Sequence record: NC_019185.1
Reading direction: 5' to 3' (one strand)
Length of the DNA: 5,142 bases
From: a plasmid
Part shown: positions 1 through 5,142 of the stretch, in pieces
How positions within the stretch are numbered: the stretch's first letter is position 1
Layout of the letters: each line of letters begins with the position of its first letter
Made by a program: the position numbers and the translations under genes
Notes under the pieces: model-generated
Seen by the model: the letters and a program-made list of their open reading frames with translations, nothing else
Database searches by the model: none
What the model was told of the DNA's origin: nothing

Positions 1-8
1 AAAAAACA

Positions 9-50
9 GGGCTGAAAGCCCAAAAAGAGCCGAAAGGCTCTATTTTTTTA
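9..50. terminator. Pair of adjacent GC hairpins forming a probable bidirectional intrinsic terminator at the replicon boundary
   Basis: gggctgaaagccc (9-21) and agagccgaaaggctct (26-41). Hairpin 2 is followed by tattttttta on the + strand. On the minus strand hairpin 1 is followed by tgtttttt (8-1). Confidence 0.5.
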
Positions 51-116
51 TATTTTATATTTTTATCTTGTTTTCGGATAGGCTAGAGCCTTTATTTGCA
101 AGGGTTGTGGATTTTA
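51..116. other. AT-rich putative DNA-unwinding region of oriV with a DnaA-box-like 9-mer
   Basis: Very AT-rich tract immediately upstream of the iterons. tgtggattt at 106-114 reads AAATCCACA on the minus strand, matching the TTATCCACA consensus at 7 of 9 positions. Confidence 0.4.
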
Positions 117-204
117 AATATGTAGAAATTTGTCGTTTAATATGTAGAAATTTGTCGTTTAATATGTAGAAATTTGTCGTTTAATATGTAGAAATTTGTC
201 GTTA
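117..204 (+). repeat. Four tandem 22-bp iterons (aatatgtagaaatttgtcgttt), Rep-binding direct repeats of oriV
   Basis: Exact 22-bp units at 117-138, 139-160 and 161-182. The fourth unit at 183-204 ends gtta. The 22-bp period is two helical turns. The units sit directly upstream of the rep gene. Confidence 0.85.
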
Positions 205-1311: not shown

Positions 1312-1401
1312 ATGTGTACTTTAATGCAAAAAGATAGCTTAATTCATTTAGTTGCTGAAGCTCAAGCAACATTAACATTAAGAATTGATCCAGGGGTCTG
1401 A
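1312..1401 (+). pseudogene. 5' fragment of a small ORF disrupted by the bla element. The present reading frame is a 29-codon fusion that terminates inside the Tn3 IRR.
   Basis: Good RBS (aaggtgg 1300-1306) and ATG at 1312. The frame continues exactly into the right flank at 2994-3152 once the element and one TSD copy are removed. Confidence 0.55.
1388..1392. repeat. 5-bp target-site duplication (atcca), left copy
   Basis: Identical pentamer at 2989-2993, immediately outside the other IRR copy. A 5-bp TSD is the Tn3-family signature. Confidence 0.75.
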
Positions 1402-1430
1402 CGCTCAGTGGAACGAAAACTCACGTTAAG
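1393..1430 (+). repeat. Tn3-family 38-bp terminal inverted repeat (IRR), left end of element
   Basis: ggggtctgacgctcagtggaacgaaaactcacgttaag is the canonical Tn3 IR sequence. Confidence 0.9.
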
Positions 1431-1454
1431 GGATTTTGGTCATGAGATTATCAA

Positions 1455-1478
1455 AAAGGATCTTCACCTAGATCCTTT
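1455..1478 (-). terminator. bla intrinsic terminator hairpin (aaaggatct/agatccttt)
   Basis: 9-bp stem with a 6-nt loop. On the minus strand it is followed by ttttt. A second copy lies at about 2903-2932 inside the inverted duplicate. Confidence 0.55.
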
Positions 1479-1539
1479 TAAATTAAAAATGAAGTTTTAA
1501 ATCAATCTAAAGTATATATGAGTAAACTTGGTCTGACAG

Positions 1540-2841
<1,302 letters not shown>

Positions 2842-2950
2842 CTGTCAGACCAAGTTTACTCATATATACTTTAGATTGATTTAAAACTTCATTTTTAATT
2901 TAAAAGGATCTAGGTGAAGATCCTTTTTGATAATCTCATGACCAAAATCC

Positions 2951-2988
2951 CTTAACGTGAGTTTTCGTTCCACTGAGCGTCAGACCCC
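2951..2988 (-). repeat. Second copy of the Tn3 38-bp IRR, inverted, forming the right end of the element
   Basis: cttaacgtgagttttcgttccactgagcgtcagacccc is the reverse complement of 1393-1430. Confidence 0.9.
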
Positions 2989-2993
2989 ATCCA
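2989..2993. repeat. 5-bp target-site duplication (atcca), right copy
   Basis: Matches 1388-1392. Both copies occupy the same codon phase of the interrupted ORF. Confidence 0.75.
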
Positions 2994-3152
2994 CAAGCTC
3001 CATTTTCTGATGATGAATTAAGACTAGGAGAAATTCATAATTTTATTTATGACAGTTCTCCTGATGATATTGATTTTAACTCTCTTTCAGAAGAAATTAT
3101 GAGCATAGACAGCAAATATAAGAGTCTTCCTATACTAGAACAGTATTTATAA
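2994..3152 (+). pseudogene. 3' fragment (52 codons plus stop) of the small ORF split by the bla element
   Basis: Open frame QAPFSDDELRLGEIHNFIYDSSPDDIDFNSLSEEIMSIDSKYKSLPILEQYL-stop. It is in phase with the 1312 ORF once the insertion is removed. There is no start codon of its own. Confidence 0.55.
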
Positions 3153-3189
3153 ATCTTTTATCGGAAAAATCTAATCATTGAAAATGCAA

Positions 3190-3228
3190 AAATAGCGTTA
3201 AATTGGCGTAGCCTGTTTAATGCTATTT
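3190..3228 (+). other. 13-bp imperfect inverted repeat (aaatagcgttaaa / tttaatgctattt) with a 13-nt spacer and a T-run after it: weak terminator or accessory oriT repeat
   Basis: 12 of 13 positions are complementary. It is followed by tttttgtatt. Confidence 0.3.
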
Positions 3229-3253
3229 TTGTATTCAGCAACCGAAGCGATAG

Positions 3254-3323
3254 CGTAGGGCGGTAGAACCCCGTAGGGCGAATGAACTTTGCTTGCAAAG
3301 TATAATGAGCTATACTTATGTAG
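3254..3323 (+). other. Putative MobV-type oriT: direct repeats cgtagggcg (x2), then overlapping inverted repeats actttgc/gcaaagt (3286-3301) and aagtata-atgagc-tatactt (3298-3317)
   Basis: It lies immediately upstream of the relaxase gene. The architecture resembles the pMV158 oriT (aaagtata-gtgtgt-tatacttta), recalled from memory. Confidence 0.55.
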
Positions 3324-3342
3324 TAAAAGTGGGGGGCAACCT

Positions 3343-4614
3343 ATGAGCAAATTAGTCTGTAATTTCGATAAATATAAGGGCGTTCAGCTCTACGGAATGG
3401 ATATTCATATCCAACGGAAAACGGACAACCATTCAAACAAAGATATTGATTTAAGTCGCAAGCATTTGAATTATGAATTGGTAGCCGAACATCAAAACGA
3501 GCACTATTACACAAGGGCGAAAAACCGTATCGAACAGGGTTACACGGGAAAGAGAAAAATCCGTAAAGACGGAGTTTGGACTGGGAACGTAATCATTTCG
3601 TCTGATCAGGAATTTTTTAAAAAACTTACCCCGGAACAAGAACGGGAATTTTTTAAAACCGCATACGATTTCTATTGCGAAAAATACGGAAAAGAAAACG
3701 TAATTTCCGCTATGGTTCACAAAGACGAAACCACACCGCATTTACACTTGTTAATTGTACCTTTAACGAAAGACGGTAGATTATGTGCGAAAGAATTATT
3801 TGATAGGGAAGCACTCAGATCATTTCACGATATTATTGCAAAACGCCTACAACAACGTGGTTTTAATATCGAACGTGGCGAACGCAACGCAAAAGTAAAG
3901 CGAATAGAAACGGACGAGTACAAACGCTTGAAAAAAGATAATCAAGTAACCGTAAAAATAAATCCAAATGATACCGTTGCAACCGTTTTAGAAAAGAAAT
4001 TGATTGGTGCTGATGTTAAGGAAACGCCCGAACAGATCGCAAATCGATTAACTCAAAAATACGTTAAACCATTAACTGATGAATTAACGGATTTGAGAAC
4101 GGAAAAGGCATTATCCGAAAAGAGAAATGACGCTATAAAATACGCTAAAGCATTTTCCCAAAGCCGAGAAAATGAGTTTATAGCCCTGTACCACTCGTTG
4201 AAAGAATTTGGCGAAAAACACGTTTCTACCGCACTAGAAAAAATCCAAAACCTAGTATCGAAGTTAAATACCGAAAAACAAAAAGAGCGTGAACAGCGAG
4301 CTCTAGAAAGAGAAAAAGAGCTGAAAGAAAAACAGCGTAACAATCAATTTGCCCAGTACCGTGAACCAGATAGCCTGTATTCTGTGCTTGATTTTGGTAA
4401 AGCTCCGTATCAGTTTGAAGATAACGGAAAACCGTCTTATTACATTGCCGTACAAGCCCAAAATGAACGCCCAAAAATCTTATGGGGAACAGAATATCAA
4501 GATCAAATTCAAGCATTGAATATTCGTAATGGCGATATTGTGCGGTTAAATGGCTCTAAAATCGAGCGTGCTGAAGAAATTAACCATAAGGCAAGCAAAG
4601 GTGTGAAAATTTAA
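3343..4614 (+). CDS. mob: MobV-family (Mob_Pre, pMV158 MobM-like) plasmid mobilization relaxase, 423 aa
   Basis: N-terminus MSKLVCNFDKYKG…HSNKDIDLSRKHLNYEL. Motif I HIQR is present, with the His at residue 22 as in MobM. Motif III is VHKDETTPHLHLLIVP (HxDE…PHxH). There is a lysine- and glutamate-rich, probably coiled-coil, middle region. The ATG at 3343 is preferred over 3289 because the MobV N-terminus begins there and a G-rich RBS (gtgggggg) precedes it. Confidence 0.9.
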   Translation: MSKLVCNFDKYKGVQLYGMDIHIQRKTDNHSNKDIDLSRKHLNYELVAEHQNEHYYTRAKNRIEQGYTGKRKIRKDGVWTGNVIISSDQEFFKKLTPEQEREFFKTAYDFYCEKYGKENVISAMVHKDETTPHLHLLIVPLTKDGRLCAKELFDREALRSFHDIIAKRLQQRGFNIERGERNAKVKRIETDEYKRLKKDNQVTVKINPNDTVATVLEKKLIGADVKETPEQIANRLTQKYVKPLTDELTDLRTEKALSEKRNDAIKYAKAFSQSRENEFIALYHSLKEFGEKHVSTALEKIQNLVSKLNTEKQKEREQRALEREKELKEKQRNNQFAQYREPDSLYSVLDFGKAPYQFEDNGKPSYYIAVQAQNERPKILWGTEYQDQIQALNIRNGDIVRLNGSKIERAEEINHKASKGVKI

Positions 4615-4672
4615 AAAAATCGCTTAAATCGCTTTAAATTGCGTTTTTTTTGCTAACGCCCTGCGGTTGTTG

Positions 4673-4720
4673 AACCCTTAAAAAACTCAAAAAACCAGTT
4701 TTTGAGCTTTTTCAAGGGTT
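4673..4720 (+). terminator. Long imperfect hairpin with an inner stem ctcaaaaa/tttttgag (4686-4706), loop accag, followed by cttttt: probable mob terminator
   Basis: Outer arms aaccctt (4673-4679) / aagggtt (4714-4720). The T-run is at 4708-4712. Confidence 0.45.
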
Positions 4721-4776
4721 ATGAGACTTCGGATTTACGGTCGTTTTTCTGACAAAAAATAAAAAAAACAAGGGTC
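4709..4776 (+). repeat. Direct repeat copy A (~68 bp; core gggttatgagacttcNNatttNcggtcgtttttctgacaaaaaa)
   Basis: It aligns with 5089-5142 plus the first ~10 nt of the window, with 3 mismatches and small A-run length differences. Confidence 0.85.
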
Positions 4777-4799
4777 ACCAGTAGAACCAGTAACCCTTG
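4765..4799 (-). terminator. Intrinsic terminator for the minus-strand lipoprotein gene: hairpin caagggt…acccttg (4769-4799), followed on the minus strand by a long T tract (complement of the A-run 4751-4768)
   Basis: 7-bp stem with a 17-nt loop. The minus-strand reading is acccttg…caagggttttttttattttttgtcag. Confidence 0.5.
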
Positions 4800-4811
4800 A
4801 AAACTTAGCAT

Positions 4812-4949
4812 TTAGTCGCTACACTTAGTGCAACAACAATTAACGCATACGTTTTTTTGTTGAGTGTCGTTTAAACCGCGAGTGCTTGCGCATCCGGCAA
4901 GATACAGGCAAGCTCCCACGGTTAGAACGGTTTTAATGAGTGAACTCAT
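4812..4949 (-). CDS. Small cysteine-rich lipoprotein precursor, 45 aa (MSSLIKTVLTVGACLYLAG|CASTRGLNDTQQKNVCVNCCCTKCSD)
   Basis: ATG at 4949-4947 with the Shine-Dalgarno AGAGGA 7 nt upstream (complement of 4957-4962). Canonical type II signal peptide: n-region with Lys, hydrophobic core, lipobox LAG-C. The mature 26-aa peptide has 6 Cys. The longer ORF-track start (5048) lacks an RBS and would bury the signal peptide. Confidence 0.6.
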   Translation of the reverse strand: MSSLIKTVLTVGACLYLAGCASTRGLNDTQQKNVCVNCCCTKCSD

Positions 4950-4991
4950 TTCAACGTCCTCTGTTGCGGTTCTACCTCGAATTGAACGAAG

Positions 4992-5019
4992 TTGATAACA
5001 CATCAGGGGAGCTTGTCGA
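4992..5019 (-). promoter_or_regulatory. Candidate sigma70 promoter for the lipoprotein gene (minus strand: -35 tcgaca = complement of 5014-5019; 16-bp spacer; -10 tatcaa = complement of 4992-4997)
   Basis: Hexamers read by eye, with appropriate spacing to the RBS and ATG. The -35 lies in the loop of the 5006-5038 hairpin. Confidence 0.3.
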
Positions 5020-5038
5020 GGAACTAAATCAGCTCCCC
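5006..5038. other. 8-bp GC-rich inverted repeat ggggagct…agctcccc with a 17-nt loop, overlapping the candidate promoter
   Basis: Perfect 8-bp arms. There is no flanking T-run, so it is not a terminator. It could be an operator or protein-binding site. Confidence 0.4.
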
Positions 5039-5064
5039 CGACACCCAAAAATTATTTTATCAGA

Positions 5065-5095
5065 AACCGTCCACTTTGGGCGGTTTTGTTTTTAT
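5065..5095 (+). terminator. Intrinsic terminator (+ strand): aaccgtcc-acttt-gggcggtt hairpin followed by ttgtttttat
   Basis: 8-bp stem (one G-U pair) with a T-run after it. It is positionally equivalent to the hairpin that precedes repeat copy A. Confidence 0.5.
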
Positions 5096-5142
5096 GGGTT
5101 ATGAGACTTCAAATTTGCGGTCGTTTTTCTGACAAAAAAATA
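5089..5142 (+). repeat. Direct repeat copy B. Homology continues across the window end into positions 1 to ~10.
   Basis: See copy A. The run …ctgacaaaaaaata|aaaaaacaggg parallels …ctgacaaaaaataaaaaaaacaaggg. Confidence 0.85.

What the first reader, a model, noticed from the sequence alone, without database searches (positions are those of the whole stretch)
4709..5142. ~68-bp direct repeats, each preceded by a terminator hairpin and followed by a different hairpin, look like module junctions
Copy A follows the mob terminator. Copy B follows a second + strand terminator and then leads, across the circular junction, into the replicon-boundary hairpins and oriV. The conserved core (gggttatgagacttc…cggtcgtttttctgacaaaaaataaaaaaaaca) is not coding and is not a recognisable Xer/dif site. 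It brackets exactly the lipoprotein cassette. It could be a conserved recombination hot-spot used for module shuffling between small plasmids. Recombination between the copies would cleanly delete the cassette. It could also be a cis-acting site.
Basis: seen in the sequence. Interest (0 to 1): 0.55.

Follow-up and report, generated by a model that had tools for sequence, protein, structure and literature searches.

The report
Duplicated junction segment flanking lipoprotein cassette
The two ~66-base repeats are real, but they look like two diverged copies of one ordinary non-coding junction segment that sits between the transfer and replication modules of small Haemophilus-type plasmids, that is, a scar of module joining and not a dedicated recombination site.

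Summary
The direct repeat is real. Copy A is 4709-4776. Copy B is 5089-5142 and continues to base ~12 across the circular junction. The period is 380 bp and identity is ~90%. It brackets a small orphan lipoprotein gene with its own terminators.

The window is most likely H. influenzae plasmid pA1209.

In related Pasteurellaceae and Neisseria Rep_3 plasmids (pJR2, pMVSCS1, pJD4, pPN223) the homologous stretch occurs once. It consists of the 3' arm of a conserved long hairpin, a short variable spacer and an A-run, followed by two small hairpins and the iterons. Here that stretch is present twice. One version is attached to the hairpin at the end of the mob module. The other is attached to oriV.

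Relatives carry A without B (L033), B without A (L022), or neither with an identical Rep (pPN223). Their breakpoints fall at the T-run/A-run edges.

The specific core is confined to this plasmid family. None of about 20 independent natural contigs shows the predicted 380-bp deletion.

There is no Xer site, no Rfam hit and no convincing USS. I read the repeat as a module-junction scar (confidence 0.6). Weak rivals are a decayed iteron, a secondary relaxase site, and part of a priming signal.

The parts
4653..4671 (+). Conserved 19-mer CTAACGCCCTGCGGTTGTT. It ends in the 8-mer CGGTTGTT that precedes the long hairpin.
   Evidence: Found with at most 1-2 changes in pGD2107-2, S25, pJR2, pAp-floR, pMVSCS1 and pRGI01177. 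A longer variant occurs in pJD4 and L012.
4673..4720 (.). Type-1 long nested hairpin. The outer stem is AACCCTT (4673-4679) paired with AAGGGTT (4714-4720), around the inner stem CTCAAAAA/TTTTTGAG. Its 3' arm forms the first bases of copy A.
   Evidence: Folded: 20 pairs, z = -5.9. Thirteen distinct homologous elements all have a 45-55-nt hairpin starting 1-2 nt after the 8-mer, with different stem sequences. See, I1.
4709..4776 (+). Direct repeat copy A. It comprises a T-run, CAAGGGTTATGAGACTTC, GGATTTACGGTCGTTTTTCTGAC and the A-run AAAAAATAAAAAAAACAAGGG.
   Evidence: (D4).
4769..4799 (-). Minus-strand intrinsic terminator of the lipoprotein gene. Its T-tail is the A-run of copy A.
   Evidence: Its 3' arm TAACCCTTGAAAA (4791-4803) is 13/13 complementary to the start of copy A at 4709-4721 (I7).
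4812..4949 (-). 45-aa orphan lipoprotein ORF (MSSLIKTVLTVGACLYLAGC...). This is the cassette cargo.
   Evidence: ORF, using the internal ATG. It has only sub-threshold family hits. In PLSDB it occurs only in pLFH49.
5054..5062 (-). Possible extended -10 promoter (TGATAAAAT on the minus strand) for the lipoprotein gene.
   Evidence: Read directly from the sequence; an inference only. L022 lacks 4921-5060 and so lacks the start of the gene.
5063..5087 (+). Plus-strand intrinsic terminator preceding copy B.
   Evidence: Homologous terminators occur in pGD2107-2 and L033, where they are joined directly to other DNA without a core.
5089..5142 (+). Direct repeat copy B, first part. It continues at 1-12 across the circular junction.
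   Evidence: (D4).
1..12 (+). End of copy B: the A-run and CAGGGC.
9..40 (.). Two small hairpins, GGGCTGAAAGCCC and GAGCCGAAAGGCTC, that precede the AT-rich region and the iterons. With their flanking A/T runs they read as bidirectional terminators.
   Evidence: Conserved in 120 PLSDB plasmids of Pasteurellaceae and Neisseria. Compared.
114..201 (+). Four 22-bp iterons of the Rep_3 origin.
   Evidence: D1, D2. Rep3_N and Rep3_C domains in the Rep protein.

Best explanation
The two copies are two diverged versions (about 10%) of one ancestral junction segment.

In related Rep_3 iteron plasmids of Pasteurellaceae and Neisseria this segment occurs once. Its order is: [8-mer CGGTTGYT + 45-55-nt hairpin] - [short variable spacer ending ...YCTGA] - [A-run] - [two small hairpins] - [AT-rich region] - [iterons] - rep. 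In this plasmid the stretch 'hairpin 3' arm + spacer + A-run' is present twice. Version A stays attached to the hairpin at the 3' end of the mob module. Version B stays attached to the origin. A small lipoprotein gene with its own promoter and terminators lies between them.

The repeat is therefore the footprint of a module-joining event. Either two plasmids that each carried this junction segment recombined, or the cassette was inserted with duplication. The event took place in an untranscribed spacer that lies between convergent terminators and tolerates insertions.

The repeat acts only passively. It offers 15- and 22-nt blocks of identity, too short for efficient homologous recombination, so the cassette is stable.

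What is shown: the homology to single-copy segments, the natural variants with one copy or neither copy, and the positions of the breakpoints. What is inferred: the joining event itself and the absence of any function for the core.
For: 1. Single-copy homologues lie directly upstream of the origin hairpins in pJR2, pAp-floR, pMVSCS1, pRGI01177, a Glaesserella plasmid, L012 and pPN223. pJD4 has one before each of its two origins. All show the same order of motif, hairpin, spacer, A-run and hairpins. pJR2 shares CGGATTT with copy A and TTTGCG with copy B, so each copy carries its own derived changes from a common ancestor.

2. The copies segregate with different modules.
- L033/L049 has mob + hairpin + A + cassette + a plus-strand terminator joined to a RepL module, without B.
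- L022 has B + a Rep_3 origin with different iterons and a truncated cassette, without A or mob.
- pGD2107-2 has the same flanking terminator and origin hairpins with only 'AGC' where core B would be.
- L023 has the 3' part of core A replaced by a 331-bp segment carrying an ORF.

3. Breakpoints in pPN223, L022, L023, L033 and pGD2107-2 fall at the edges of the A-run or T-run next to hairpins.

4. pPN223 carries the identical Rep protein (WP_015060112.1, as in pLFH49) and the same iterons but has no window-type core. The core is therefore not needed for replication.

5. The core is unstructured (z about 0), non-coding and has no Rfam hit. It is absent from GTDB representative genomes and from PLSDB outside pLFH49.

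6. No 380-bp deletion derivative was found. The motif-to-origin distance is 498 in 28 occurrences, 497 in one and 796 in one, and never 118.
Against: - Both copies are invariant in every family member, even where mob is only about 90% identical. This could reflect selection, but the family is also invariant across the whole of 4600-5142, so it is uninformative.
- Core B resembles the plasmid's own iteron with a 3-nt insertion: AAATTTG[CGG]TCGTTT, with 0.01 such matches expected by chance.
- Each copy begins with the 3' arm of a stem. In copy B this is ACCCA/TGGGT, present in the centroid fold.
- A 13-nt perfect inverted repeat links the start of copy A to the lipoprotein terminator. A simple scar model does not explain this.
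- The actual recombination event cannot be reconstructed. No cassette-free ancestor with the window-type core was found.
Confidence: 0.6

Rival explanations
1. The core is a decayed or accessory iteron, that is, a weak extra binding site for the Rep_3 initiator outside the minimal origin. It would titrate Rep or take part in handcuffing, and so contribute to copy-number control. The duplication would then double that site.
For: The gapped pattern AAATTTG N0-3 TCGTTT matches only three of the four iterons and core B, with 0.01 matches expected by chance. TATG precedes the match, as it does in the iteron. The pJR2 spacer has ATTTG-CGTTT against its own iteron ATTTGTCGTTT. pPN223, which has the same Rep, carries three ~21-bp iteron-like repeats (GGTGyACnGATTTT) at the equivalent position.
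Against: The similarity needs two indels, which would break the spacing a Rep_3 monomer reads. Copy A lacks AAATTTG. L022 has different iterons but a 100% identical core B, so there is no co-variation. The pattern was chosen after seeing the sequence.
Confidence: 0.12
2. The repeat, together with the long hairpin it abuts, is part of a single-strand priming signal (sso/ssi-like) or of a structured origin-proximal element. It would work as folded single-stranded DNA during replication or after transfer.
For: The hairpin element (8-mer + 45-55-nt hairpin) is conserved in structure but not in stem sequence across 13 distinct instances. A paralogous inverted copy lies next to oriT in this plasmid and in pGD2107-2, pJR2, pPN223 and L022. 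In several of these the loop carries the complement of the ssoA CS-6 hexamer TAGCGT (CS-6 and RSB as given in PMC4598088). In pMV158 the mob cassette is followed by ssoA.
Against: The core itself is unstructured. It is the variable, insertion-prone part of the element. pPN223 and pGD2107-2 lack it. No RSB-like sequence is evident. The hairpin next to copy A has no TAGCGT loop.
Confidence: 0.1
3. Each copy is a secondary recognition or nick site for the plasmid's MobV (Pre, 'plasmid recombination enzyme') relaxase. Relaxase-catalysed strand transfer between the two sites, or with sites on other plasmids, would capture, excise or shuffle the cassette.
For: Mob belongs to Mob_Pre (E = 3e-57). The genuine pMV158-like oriT is at 3286-3325, AACTTTGCTTGCAAAGTATAATGAG/CTATAC (compare PMC5863519, and pMV158). 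The 13 bases upstream of a putative nick in copy A (CAAGGGTTATGAG) match the oriT 13-mer AAAGTATAATGAG at 9 of 13 positions by direct reading, and they directly follow a hairpin arm, as in oriT. The 15-mer GGGTTATGAGACTTC is the perfectly conserved part of both copies. The L023 breakpoint lies 3 nt after that position.
Against: A 9/13 match in AT-rich DNA is expected by chance somewhere in the two copies. The stem-to-nick spacing is 5 nt, against 8 in oriT. pPN223 has GGGTTGAGATTT at the same place but no mob gene. pGD2107-2 has a related Mob but no ATGAG. No excision product was seen.
Confidence: 0.07
4. Copy B is a degenerate DNA uptake signal sequence that helps the plasmid enter naturally competent Haemophilus.
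For: ATTTGCGGT fits the global Pasteurellaceae pattern ANNNGCGGT, and an AT tract (GTTTTT) follows in phase (PMC1626085). GCGG is the indispensable inner core (PMC7811141). The pentamer GCGGT occurs 16 times in the window against 5.8 expected.
Against: There are two mismatches to AAGTGCGGT, and such near-matches are not more frequent than chance (15 against 11.8). Copy A has ACGG, which destroys the inner core. The second AT tract is an A-run and not T-rich. The pJR2 and pJD4 homologues lack GCGGT. A perfect inner core alone does not raise uptake.
Confidence: 0.06
5. The repeats are sites for a host site-specific recombinase (Xer/cer-like multimer resolution).
For: Their position in a non-coding region near the origin resembles that of cer-type sites in small plasmids (general knowledge).
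Against: No match to the dif/cer architecture at up to 3 mismatches. Matches to the XerD arm are not above chance, and none lies in the repeats. Two directly repeated functional sites would delete the cassette, which is not observed.
Confidence: 0.02

Closest known systems
Origin-upstream non-coding region of Pasteurellaceae and Neisseria Rep_3 iteron plasmids (pJR2, pMVSCS1, pAp-floR, pJD4 and the gonococcal beta-lactamase plasmids, pPN223)
   Same: The order of parts and much of the sequence are shared: motif ending in CGGTTGYT, long hairpin, short spacer ending in CTGA, A-run AAAAA(T/G)AAAAAAA, GGGCTGAAAGCCC, a second small hairpin, AT-rich region and 22-bp iterons.
   Different: There the hairpin-arm/spacer/A-run stretch is single-copy. 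Here it is duplicated around a gene cassette, and the spacer is longer (33 nt against about 16-20).
Direct repeats of the gonococcal Asia-type plasmid pJD4, whose loss of one repeat unit gives the Africa-type plasmid
   Same: The whole element is directly repeated, once before each of the two origins, within a ~550-bp repeat spaced 1827-1829 bp. The Africa-type plasmid is copy-1-like up to L011 position 1091 and copy-2-like from position 1157. The crossover therefore lies in the hairpin/spacer of the homologous element. The 1,826-bp difference is described in PMC10438826.
   Different: The pJD4 repeat is about eight times longer and nearly identical, so ordinary homologous recombination suffices. 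The window's repeat is 66 nt at 90% identity, and no deletion product is seen. The pJD4 case is a single event, with about a 0.13 chance of landing in that interval if crossovers were uniform along the repeat.
ssoA-type single-strand origins flanking the mob cassette of pMV158
   Same: A MobV relaxase gene with a pMV158-like oriT is flanked by long hairpin elements. In related plasmids the hairpin loop carries the complement of CS-6, TAGCGT.
   Different: The two elements here are in inverted orientation. No RSB is recognisable. The repeat under study is the unstructured spacer next to one of them and not the hairpin itself. The plasmid replicates by an iteron (theta-type) Rep_3 system.
Hin-type uptake signal sequence
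   Same: Copy B has GCGGT preceded by A-N-N-N and followed by an AT tract.
   Different: Two core mismatches, copy A lacks GCGG, the motif is not conserved in homologues, and there is no enrichment of near-USS sequences.

Membership tests
Origin-upstream junction region of Pasteurellaceae/Neisseria Rep_3 plasmids | A conserved motif ending in CGGTTGYT, followed within 1-2 nt by a 45-55-nt hairpin | tested here: met
   Window 4653-4720. Thirteen distinct instances were folded, each with 16-22 pairs and z from -2.8 to -7.1.
Origin-upstream junction region of Pasteurellaceae/Neisseria Rep_3 plasmids | A spacer ending in YCTGA, then an A-run, then GGGCTGAAAGCCC and a second small hairpin, then an AT-rich region and iterons | tested here: met
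   Copy B + 1-201 shows the full order. Copy A has the spacer and A-run but is followed by the lipoprotein terminator instead.
Origin-upstream junction region of Pasteurellaceae/Neisseria Rep_3 plasmids | One copy per origin | tested here: not met
   There are two copies of the arm/spacer/A-run stretch for one origin. This is the feature that makes the window unusual.
Xer (dif/cer) recombination site | 11-bp XerC arm, 6-8-bp centre and 11-bp XerD arm matching the consensus | tested here: not met
   No match at up to 3 mismatches. XerD-arm matches are at chance level and lie outside the repeats.
Uptake signal sequence (Hin-type) | 9-bp core AAGTGCGGT | tested here: not met
   Copy B has ATTTGCGGT, with 2 mismatches. 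Copy A does not appear at up to 2 mismatches. Near-matches number 15 against 11.8 expected.
Uptake signal sequence (Hin-type) | Intact inner core GCGG | tested here: inconclusive
   Present in copy B (5117-5120). Absent in copy A, which has ACGG.
Uptake signal sequence (Hin-type) | Actual preferential uptake by competent cells | not testable with these tools
   Needs an uptake or competition assay.
Rep_3 iteron | Ungapped match to the plasmid's 22-bp iteron, co-varying with the iterons in relatives | tested here: not met
   The similarity holds only with gaps. L022 has different iterons but an identical core B.
MobV oriT / RSA site | A short inverted repeat followed 8 nt later by the nick dinucleotide within a conserved nick-region sequence | tested here: inconclusive
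   The genuine site is at 3286-3325. The core has an adjacent hairpin arm and 9/13 identity to the nick-proximal 13-mer, but the spacing is 5 nt (direct reading).
MobV oriT / RSA site | Cleavage or strand transfer by the relaxase | not testable with these tools
   Needs a biochemical or genetic assay.
Transposable element or MITE | Terminal inverted repeats at the ends of the inserted unit, plus a short target-site duplication | tested here: not met
   No inverted repeats at the two ends of the cassette. The 13-nt inverted repeat 4709-4721/4791-4803 brackets core A and not the cassette. A 66-nt repeat at 90% identity is not a target-site duplication.
ssoA-type single-strand origin | A long hairpin with RSB in the stem and CS-6 (TAGCGT) in the loop | tested here: not met
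   The hairpin next to copy A has the loop CCAG and no TAGCGT. No RSB-like sequence was found. CS-6-like loops occur only in the inverted paralogues near oriT in relatives.

The most novel reading that the evidence does not exclude
The duplicated stretch is an active cis-site and not a scar. One possibility is that hairpin arm + TTATGAG/AC forms a secondary nick or termination site for the plasmid's MobV/Pre relaxase. The two direct copies would then define a relaxase-mobilisable mini-cassette that can be excised or swapped between plasmids. The other possibility is an accessory pseudo-iteron used by Rep for copy control. Either reading would give small Pasteurellaceae plasmids a defined, protein-driven mechanism for exchanging cargo at the mob/oriV junction.
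Probability: 0.12. Interest if true: 0.6.

Novelty: new member of a known kind. Interest (0 to 1): 0.3.

Why it matters
This plasmid family carries blaTEM-1 in Haemophilus and is common in public assemblies. Its exact Rep protein is listed in 854 index blocks and its exact Mob protein in 1193.

Cargo is swapped in the spacer between a conserved hairpin and the terminator-insulated origin. Knowing this explains the mosaic structures of pA1209, pLFH49, pPN223, pGD2107-2 and the gonococcal plasmids, and it helps predict where new resistance cargo can be accommodated.

The repeat itself, as a scar, is of modest interest. The conserved hairpin elements that flank the transfer module may be the more useful lead.

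Tried and rejected
- BLAST of the core alone and of 4600-5142 against PLSDB found only pLFH49. The hits in pGD2107-2 and S25 lay upstream of the repeat.
- A degenerate pattern covering both the window-type and the pJR2-type core was run against GTDB representative genomes. It gave six chance hits in unrelated phyla.
- Rfam at a permissive threshold gave nothing in the region.
I replaced this with per-sequence folding.
- The Xer/dif search was negative.
- The USS idea is not supported statistically.
- The RSB of ssoA (TTATGCCGAGAAAATTT) compared with the core (TTATGAGACTTCAAATTT) matches only with two indels. I rejected it as a match.
- I first thought the 19-mer downstream of mob was an inverted oriT nick region. 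I dropped that idea once the pMV158-like oriT was located at 3286-3325.
- The lipoprotein has no family assignment.
- The original pA1209 paper (Sondergaard 2012) is not held in the library.
Full report
**What the window is**

The 5142-bp window is a small circular plasmid. It carries:
- a Rep_3 initiator (284-1276) with four 22-bp iterons (114-201);
- blaTEM-1 (1540-2400, minus strand) inside a Tn fragment;
- a Mob_Pre/MobV relaxase (3343-4614);
- a 45-aa lipoprotein ORF (4812-4949, minus strand).

Its closest PLSDB relatives are H. influenzae pLFH49 and pPN223. Its length and gene content match the 5,142-bp H. influenzae plasmid pA1209 as described in PMC6992377.

The backbone without the bla insert (1-1392 joined to 2989-5142) occurs as a cryptic plasmid in metagenomes (L019, L020, L025). 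The exact Rep protein is listed in 854 index blocks of public assemblies and the exact Mob protein in 1193.

**Checking the observation**

- The direct repeat is real. It has a 51-nt ungapped block at 90% identity (4709-4759 and 5089-5139, spacing 380). With a one-base shift in the A-run it extends to about 66-68 nt, and copy B runs across the circular junction to about base 12.
- Copy B is preceded by a canonical plus-strand terminator at 5063-5087.
- Copy A is followed by a canonical minus-strand terminator at 4799-4769.
- Copy B is followed by GGGCTGAAAGCCC and GAGCCGAAAGGCTC. With their flanking A/T runs these also read as terminators.
- The A-run inside each copy is thus the T-tail of a minus-strand terminator.
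- The hairpin before copy A is more than a mob terminator. It is the inner part of a 48-nt nested hairpin at 4673-4720, and the 3' arm of that hairpin, AAGGGTT, forms the first bases of copy A.
- The core between the hairpins is unstructured (z about 0), is non-coding and has no Rfam match.

**What the repeated stretch corresponds to elsewhere**

The region 1-79 (A-run, two small hairpins, AT-rich DNA) is conserved in 120 PLSDB plasmids of Pasteurellaceae and Neisseria. I read what lies upstream of it in pJR2, pAp-floR, pMVSCS1, pRGI01177, a Glaesserella plasmid, an H. parainfluenzae plasmid and pPN223. pJD4 has one such arrangement before each of its two origins. All show a common, single-copy arrangement:
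- a motif ending in CGGTTGYT;
- a 45-55-nt hairpin;
- a short spacer ending in CTGA;
- the A-run;
- the two hairpins;
- the iterons.

pJD4 even has the same outer stem as the window, GAACCCTT/AAGGGTT.

The window has the same arrangement, but the stretch 'hairpin 3' arm + spacer + A-run' is present twice. Copy A is attached to the motif and hairpin at the end of mob. Copy B is attached to the origin hairpins.

pJR2 shares CGGATTT with copy A and TTTGCG with copy B. Each copy therefore carries its own derived changes from a common ancestor close to CGGATTTGCGGTCG.

**The hairpin element**

I examined thirteen distinct instances. Each has a 16-22-pair hairpin beginning 1-2 nt after the 8-mer, with z between -2.8 and -7.1. 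Their stem sequences are quite different: AACCCTT/AAGGGTT, AACCCCG/CGGGGTT, AATCCGCATT/AATGCGGATT, AACCCTAA/TTAGGGTT and others. This is structural conservation with sequence turnover.

A paralogous copy in inverted orientation lies at 3183-3262, just upstream of a pMV158-like oriT at 3286-3325 (AACTTTGCTTGCAAAGTATAATGAG/CTATAC). For comparison see PMC5863519 and pMV158 itself. In pPN223 and L022 the same kind of element precedes an RP4-like nick region, an inverted repeat followed by TATCCTGC.

I could not establish what these hairpins do. A priming signal or a transcription insulator are the obvious candidates.

**Natural variants**

- A metagenome scan for the core found seven contigs, all from this plasmid family. 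Both copies are identical in them apart from A-run length.
- L022 has copy B, 100% identical, next to a Rep_3 origin with different iterons. It has a truncated lipoprotein gene and no copy A or mob. Its left junction lies at the start of the A-run of copy A and joins pPN223-type DNA.
- L023 has the 3' part of core A (4729-4761) replaced by a 331-bp segment carrying an 80-aa ORF.
- L033/L049 carries mob, hairpin, copy A, the cassette and a variant plus-strand terminator. These are joined directly to a RepL-type module with no copy B.
- pGD2107-2 has the same mob-proximal hairpin, a different small minus-strand ORF, the same plus-strand terminator and the same origin hairpins. Only 'AGC' sits where core B would be.
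- pPN223 has the identical Rep protein and iterons. At the same place it has a different spacer, GAGATTTATTTTTATTG plus three ~21-bp repeats.

From these variants I draw four conclusions:
- Copy A travels with the mob/cassette module.
- Copy B travels with the Rep_3 origin.
- The core is dispensable for replication.
- Breakpoints cluster at the T-run and A-run edges next to hairpins.

Recombination patches among relatives also occur elsewhere, in the mob N-terminus, the iterons and rep. The junction is therefore one favoured place and not the only one.

**Stability**

The predicted clean deletion, which would give a motif-to-origin distance of 118 in place of 498, was not seen. The 30 scored occurrences gave 498 in 28, 497 in one and 796 in one. 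Several loci come from the same contigs, so this represents roughly 20 independent sequences. The longest perfect blocks shared by the two copies are 15 and 22 nt. From general knowledge of RecA substrate requirements, these are short for efficient homologous recombination.

**A precedent in gonococcal plasmids**

In pJD4 the whole element is part of a ~550-bp direct repeat spaced 1827-1829 bp. The Africa-type plasmid is copy-1-like up to L011 position 1091 and copy-2-like from 1157. The crossover of the 1.8-kb Asia/Africa difference (PMC10438826) therefore lies in the hairpin/spacer of the homologous element. This is a single event and would happen about 13% of the time by chance, so it is only a precedent.

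**Rival explanations considered**

- Xer/cer site: no match.
- USS: copy B has ATTTGCGGT followed by an AT tract. However, it has two core mismatches, copy A lacks GCGG, the homologues lack the motif, and near-USS counts are at chance level.
- Pseudo-iteron: AAATTTG[CGG]TCGTTT in copy B is unlikely by chance, and pJR2 shows a similar relation. But the similarity needs indels and does not co-vary with the iterons in L022.
- Secondary relaxase site: there is 9/13 identity to the nick-proximal 13-mer next to a hairpin arm. That level is expected by chance, and the sequence is also present in mob-less pPN223.
- MITE or transposon: there are no terminal inverted repeats at the cassette ends. A 13-nt perfect inverted repeat (4709-4721/4791-4803) links the start of copy A to the lipoprotein terminator and remains unexplained.

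**Verdict**

The interpretation as a module junction is supported. The interpretation as a widely conserved, active recombination hot-spot is not.

The most economical reading is a recombination scar. Two diverged versions of one ancestral junction segment were brought into direct repeat when a mob/cassette module and a Rep_3 origin module were joined. The joining took place in a terminator-insulated, insertion-tolerant spacer.

Noticed in passing
window 3183-3262 and 4653-4720; also L003, L005, L011, L012, L002, L022, L027, L004: A family of elements, the 8-mer CGGTTGYT followed by a 45-55-nt hairpin, occurs in 1-3 copies per plasmid on both strands. Stems differ in sequence but are always paired. 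One type lies next to the Rep_3 origin. An inverted type lies next to oriT, whether that oriT is pMV158-like or RP4-like. In the oriT-associated type several loops carry GACTACGCTA, the complement of the ssoA CS-6 hexamer TAGCGT. This may be a strand-specific priming signal that flanks the transfer module.
   Followed up: partly
window 3286-3325: This is a pMV158-type oriT: a 7-bp inverted repeat ACTTTGC/GCAAAGT, then ATAATGAG, then CTATACTTATG, 18 bp upstream of the mob start codon. pGD2107-2 has the equivalent ACACTTTACATAGTAAAGTATAGTGAGCTACAC. A Gram-positive-type MobV module thus sits on a Haemophilus theta plasmid.
   Followed up: partly
L002 (pPN223) 2915-3010; L022 about 1690-1830 (minus strand as displayed): pPN223 and L022 are typed as non-mobilizable. 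Both nevertheless carry an inverted repeat followed by TATCCTGC, which resembles the IncP/RP4 nick region. It sits at the place where the window has its MobV oriT. This is a possible orphan oriT.
   Followed up: no
window 1393-1738 and 2643-2988: A 346-nt perfect inverted repeat, made of the 3' end of bla plus the adjacent Tn sequence, flanks the bla gene. The whole insert (1393-2988) interrupts a small ORF (1312-1392 joined to 2989-3150) that is intact in bla-free relatives (junction 1392|2989 in L020 and L025).
   Followed up: partly
window 2411-2518: A 54-bp tandem duplication lies just upstream of blaTEM-1 (98% identical copies). From memory this resembles the repeat-type TEM promoter variant reported in Haemophilus. 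I did not check this.
   Followed up: no
L011 (pJD4) 1092-1156 versus L026: The crossover of the 1.8-kb Asia/Africa difference between the gonococcal beta-lactamase plasmids maps inside the hairpin/spacer of the element homologous to the one studied here.
   Followed up: yes
window 27-39 versus L029 (pMV158) about 5268-5280: The 13-mer GAGCCGAAAGGCT of the second origin hairpin is identical to a 13-mer in the pMV158 ssoA, next to its CS-6 TAGCGT. This could be distant homology. It could also be the generic look of a GAAA-tetraloop hairpin.
   Followed up: no
window 4709-4721 and 4791-4803: A 13-nt perfect inverted repeat, TTTTCAAGGGTTA / TAACCCTTGAAAA, links the start of copy A to the 3' arm of the lipoprotein terminator. 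CAAGGGTYA occurs at 4713 and 4769. This suggests alternative pairings or a rearrangement history that the scar model does not explain.
   Followed up: partly
L020 versus window 3300-3900; iterons in L019, L025, L037, L038, L047, L048: The family is mosaic. A ~600-bp patch in the mob N-terminal region of L020 shows about 35% mismatches, while the flanks are identical. The distance from the end of mob to the start of rep varies (812, 768, 913), probably because the number of 22-bp iterons varies; I did not check this.
   Followed up: partly
L003 (pGD2107-2) 1500-1570 minus strand; L002 3867-3985; window 4812-4949: The same intergenic position holds a different tiny hydrophobic or lipoprotein-like ORF in each plasmid: 27 aa in pGD2107-2, about 40 aa in pPN223 and 45 aa here. 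All are orphans. This may be a recurrent small membrane-peptide cargo of unknown role.
   Followed up: no
L001 (pLFH49) 1805-3077 and about 1300-1330: The pLFH49 record splits mob into two CDS. It also has small indels in the plus-strand terminator before copy B, relative to all other family members. These are probably sequencing errors in the older record.
   Followed up: no
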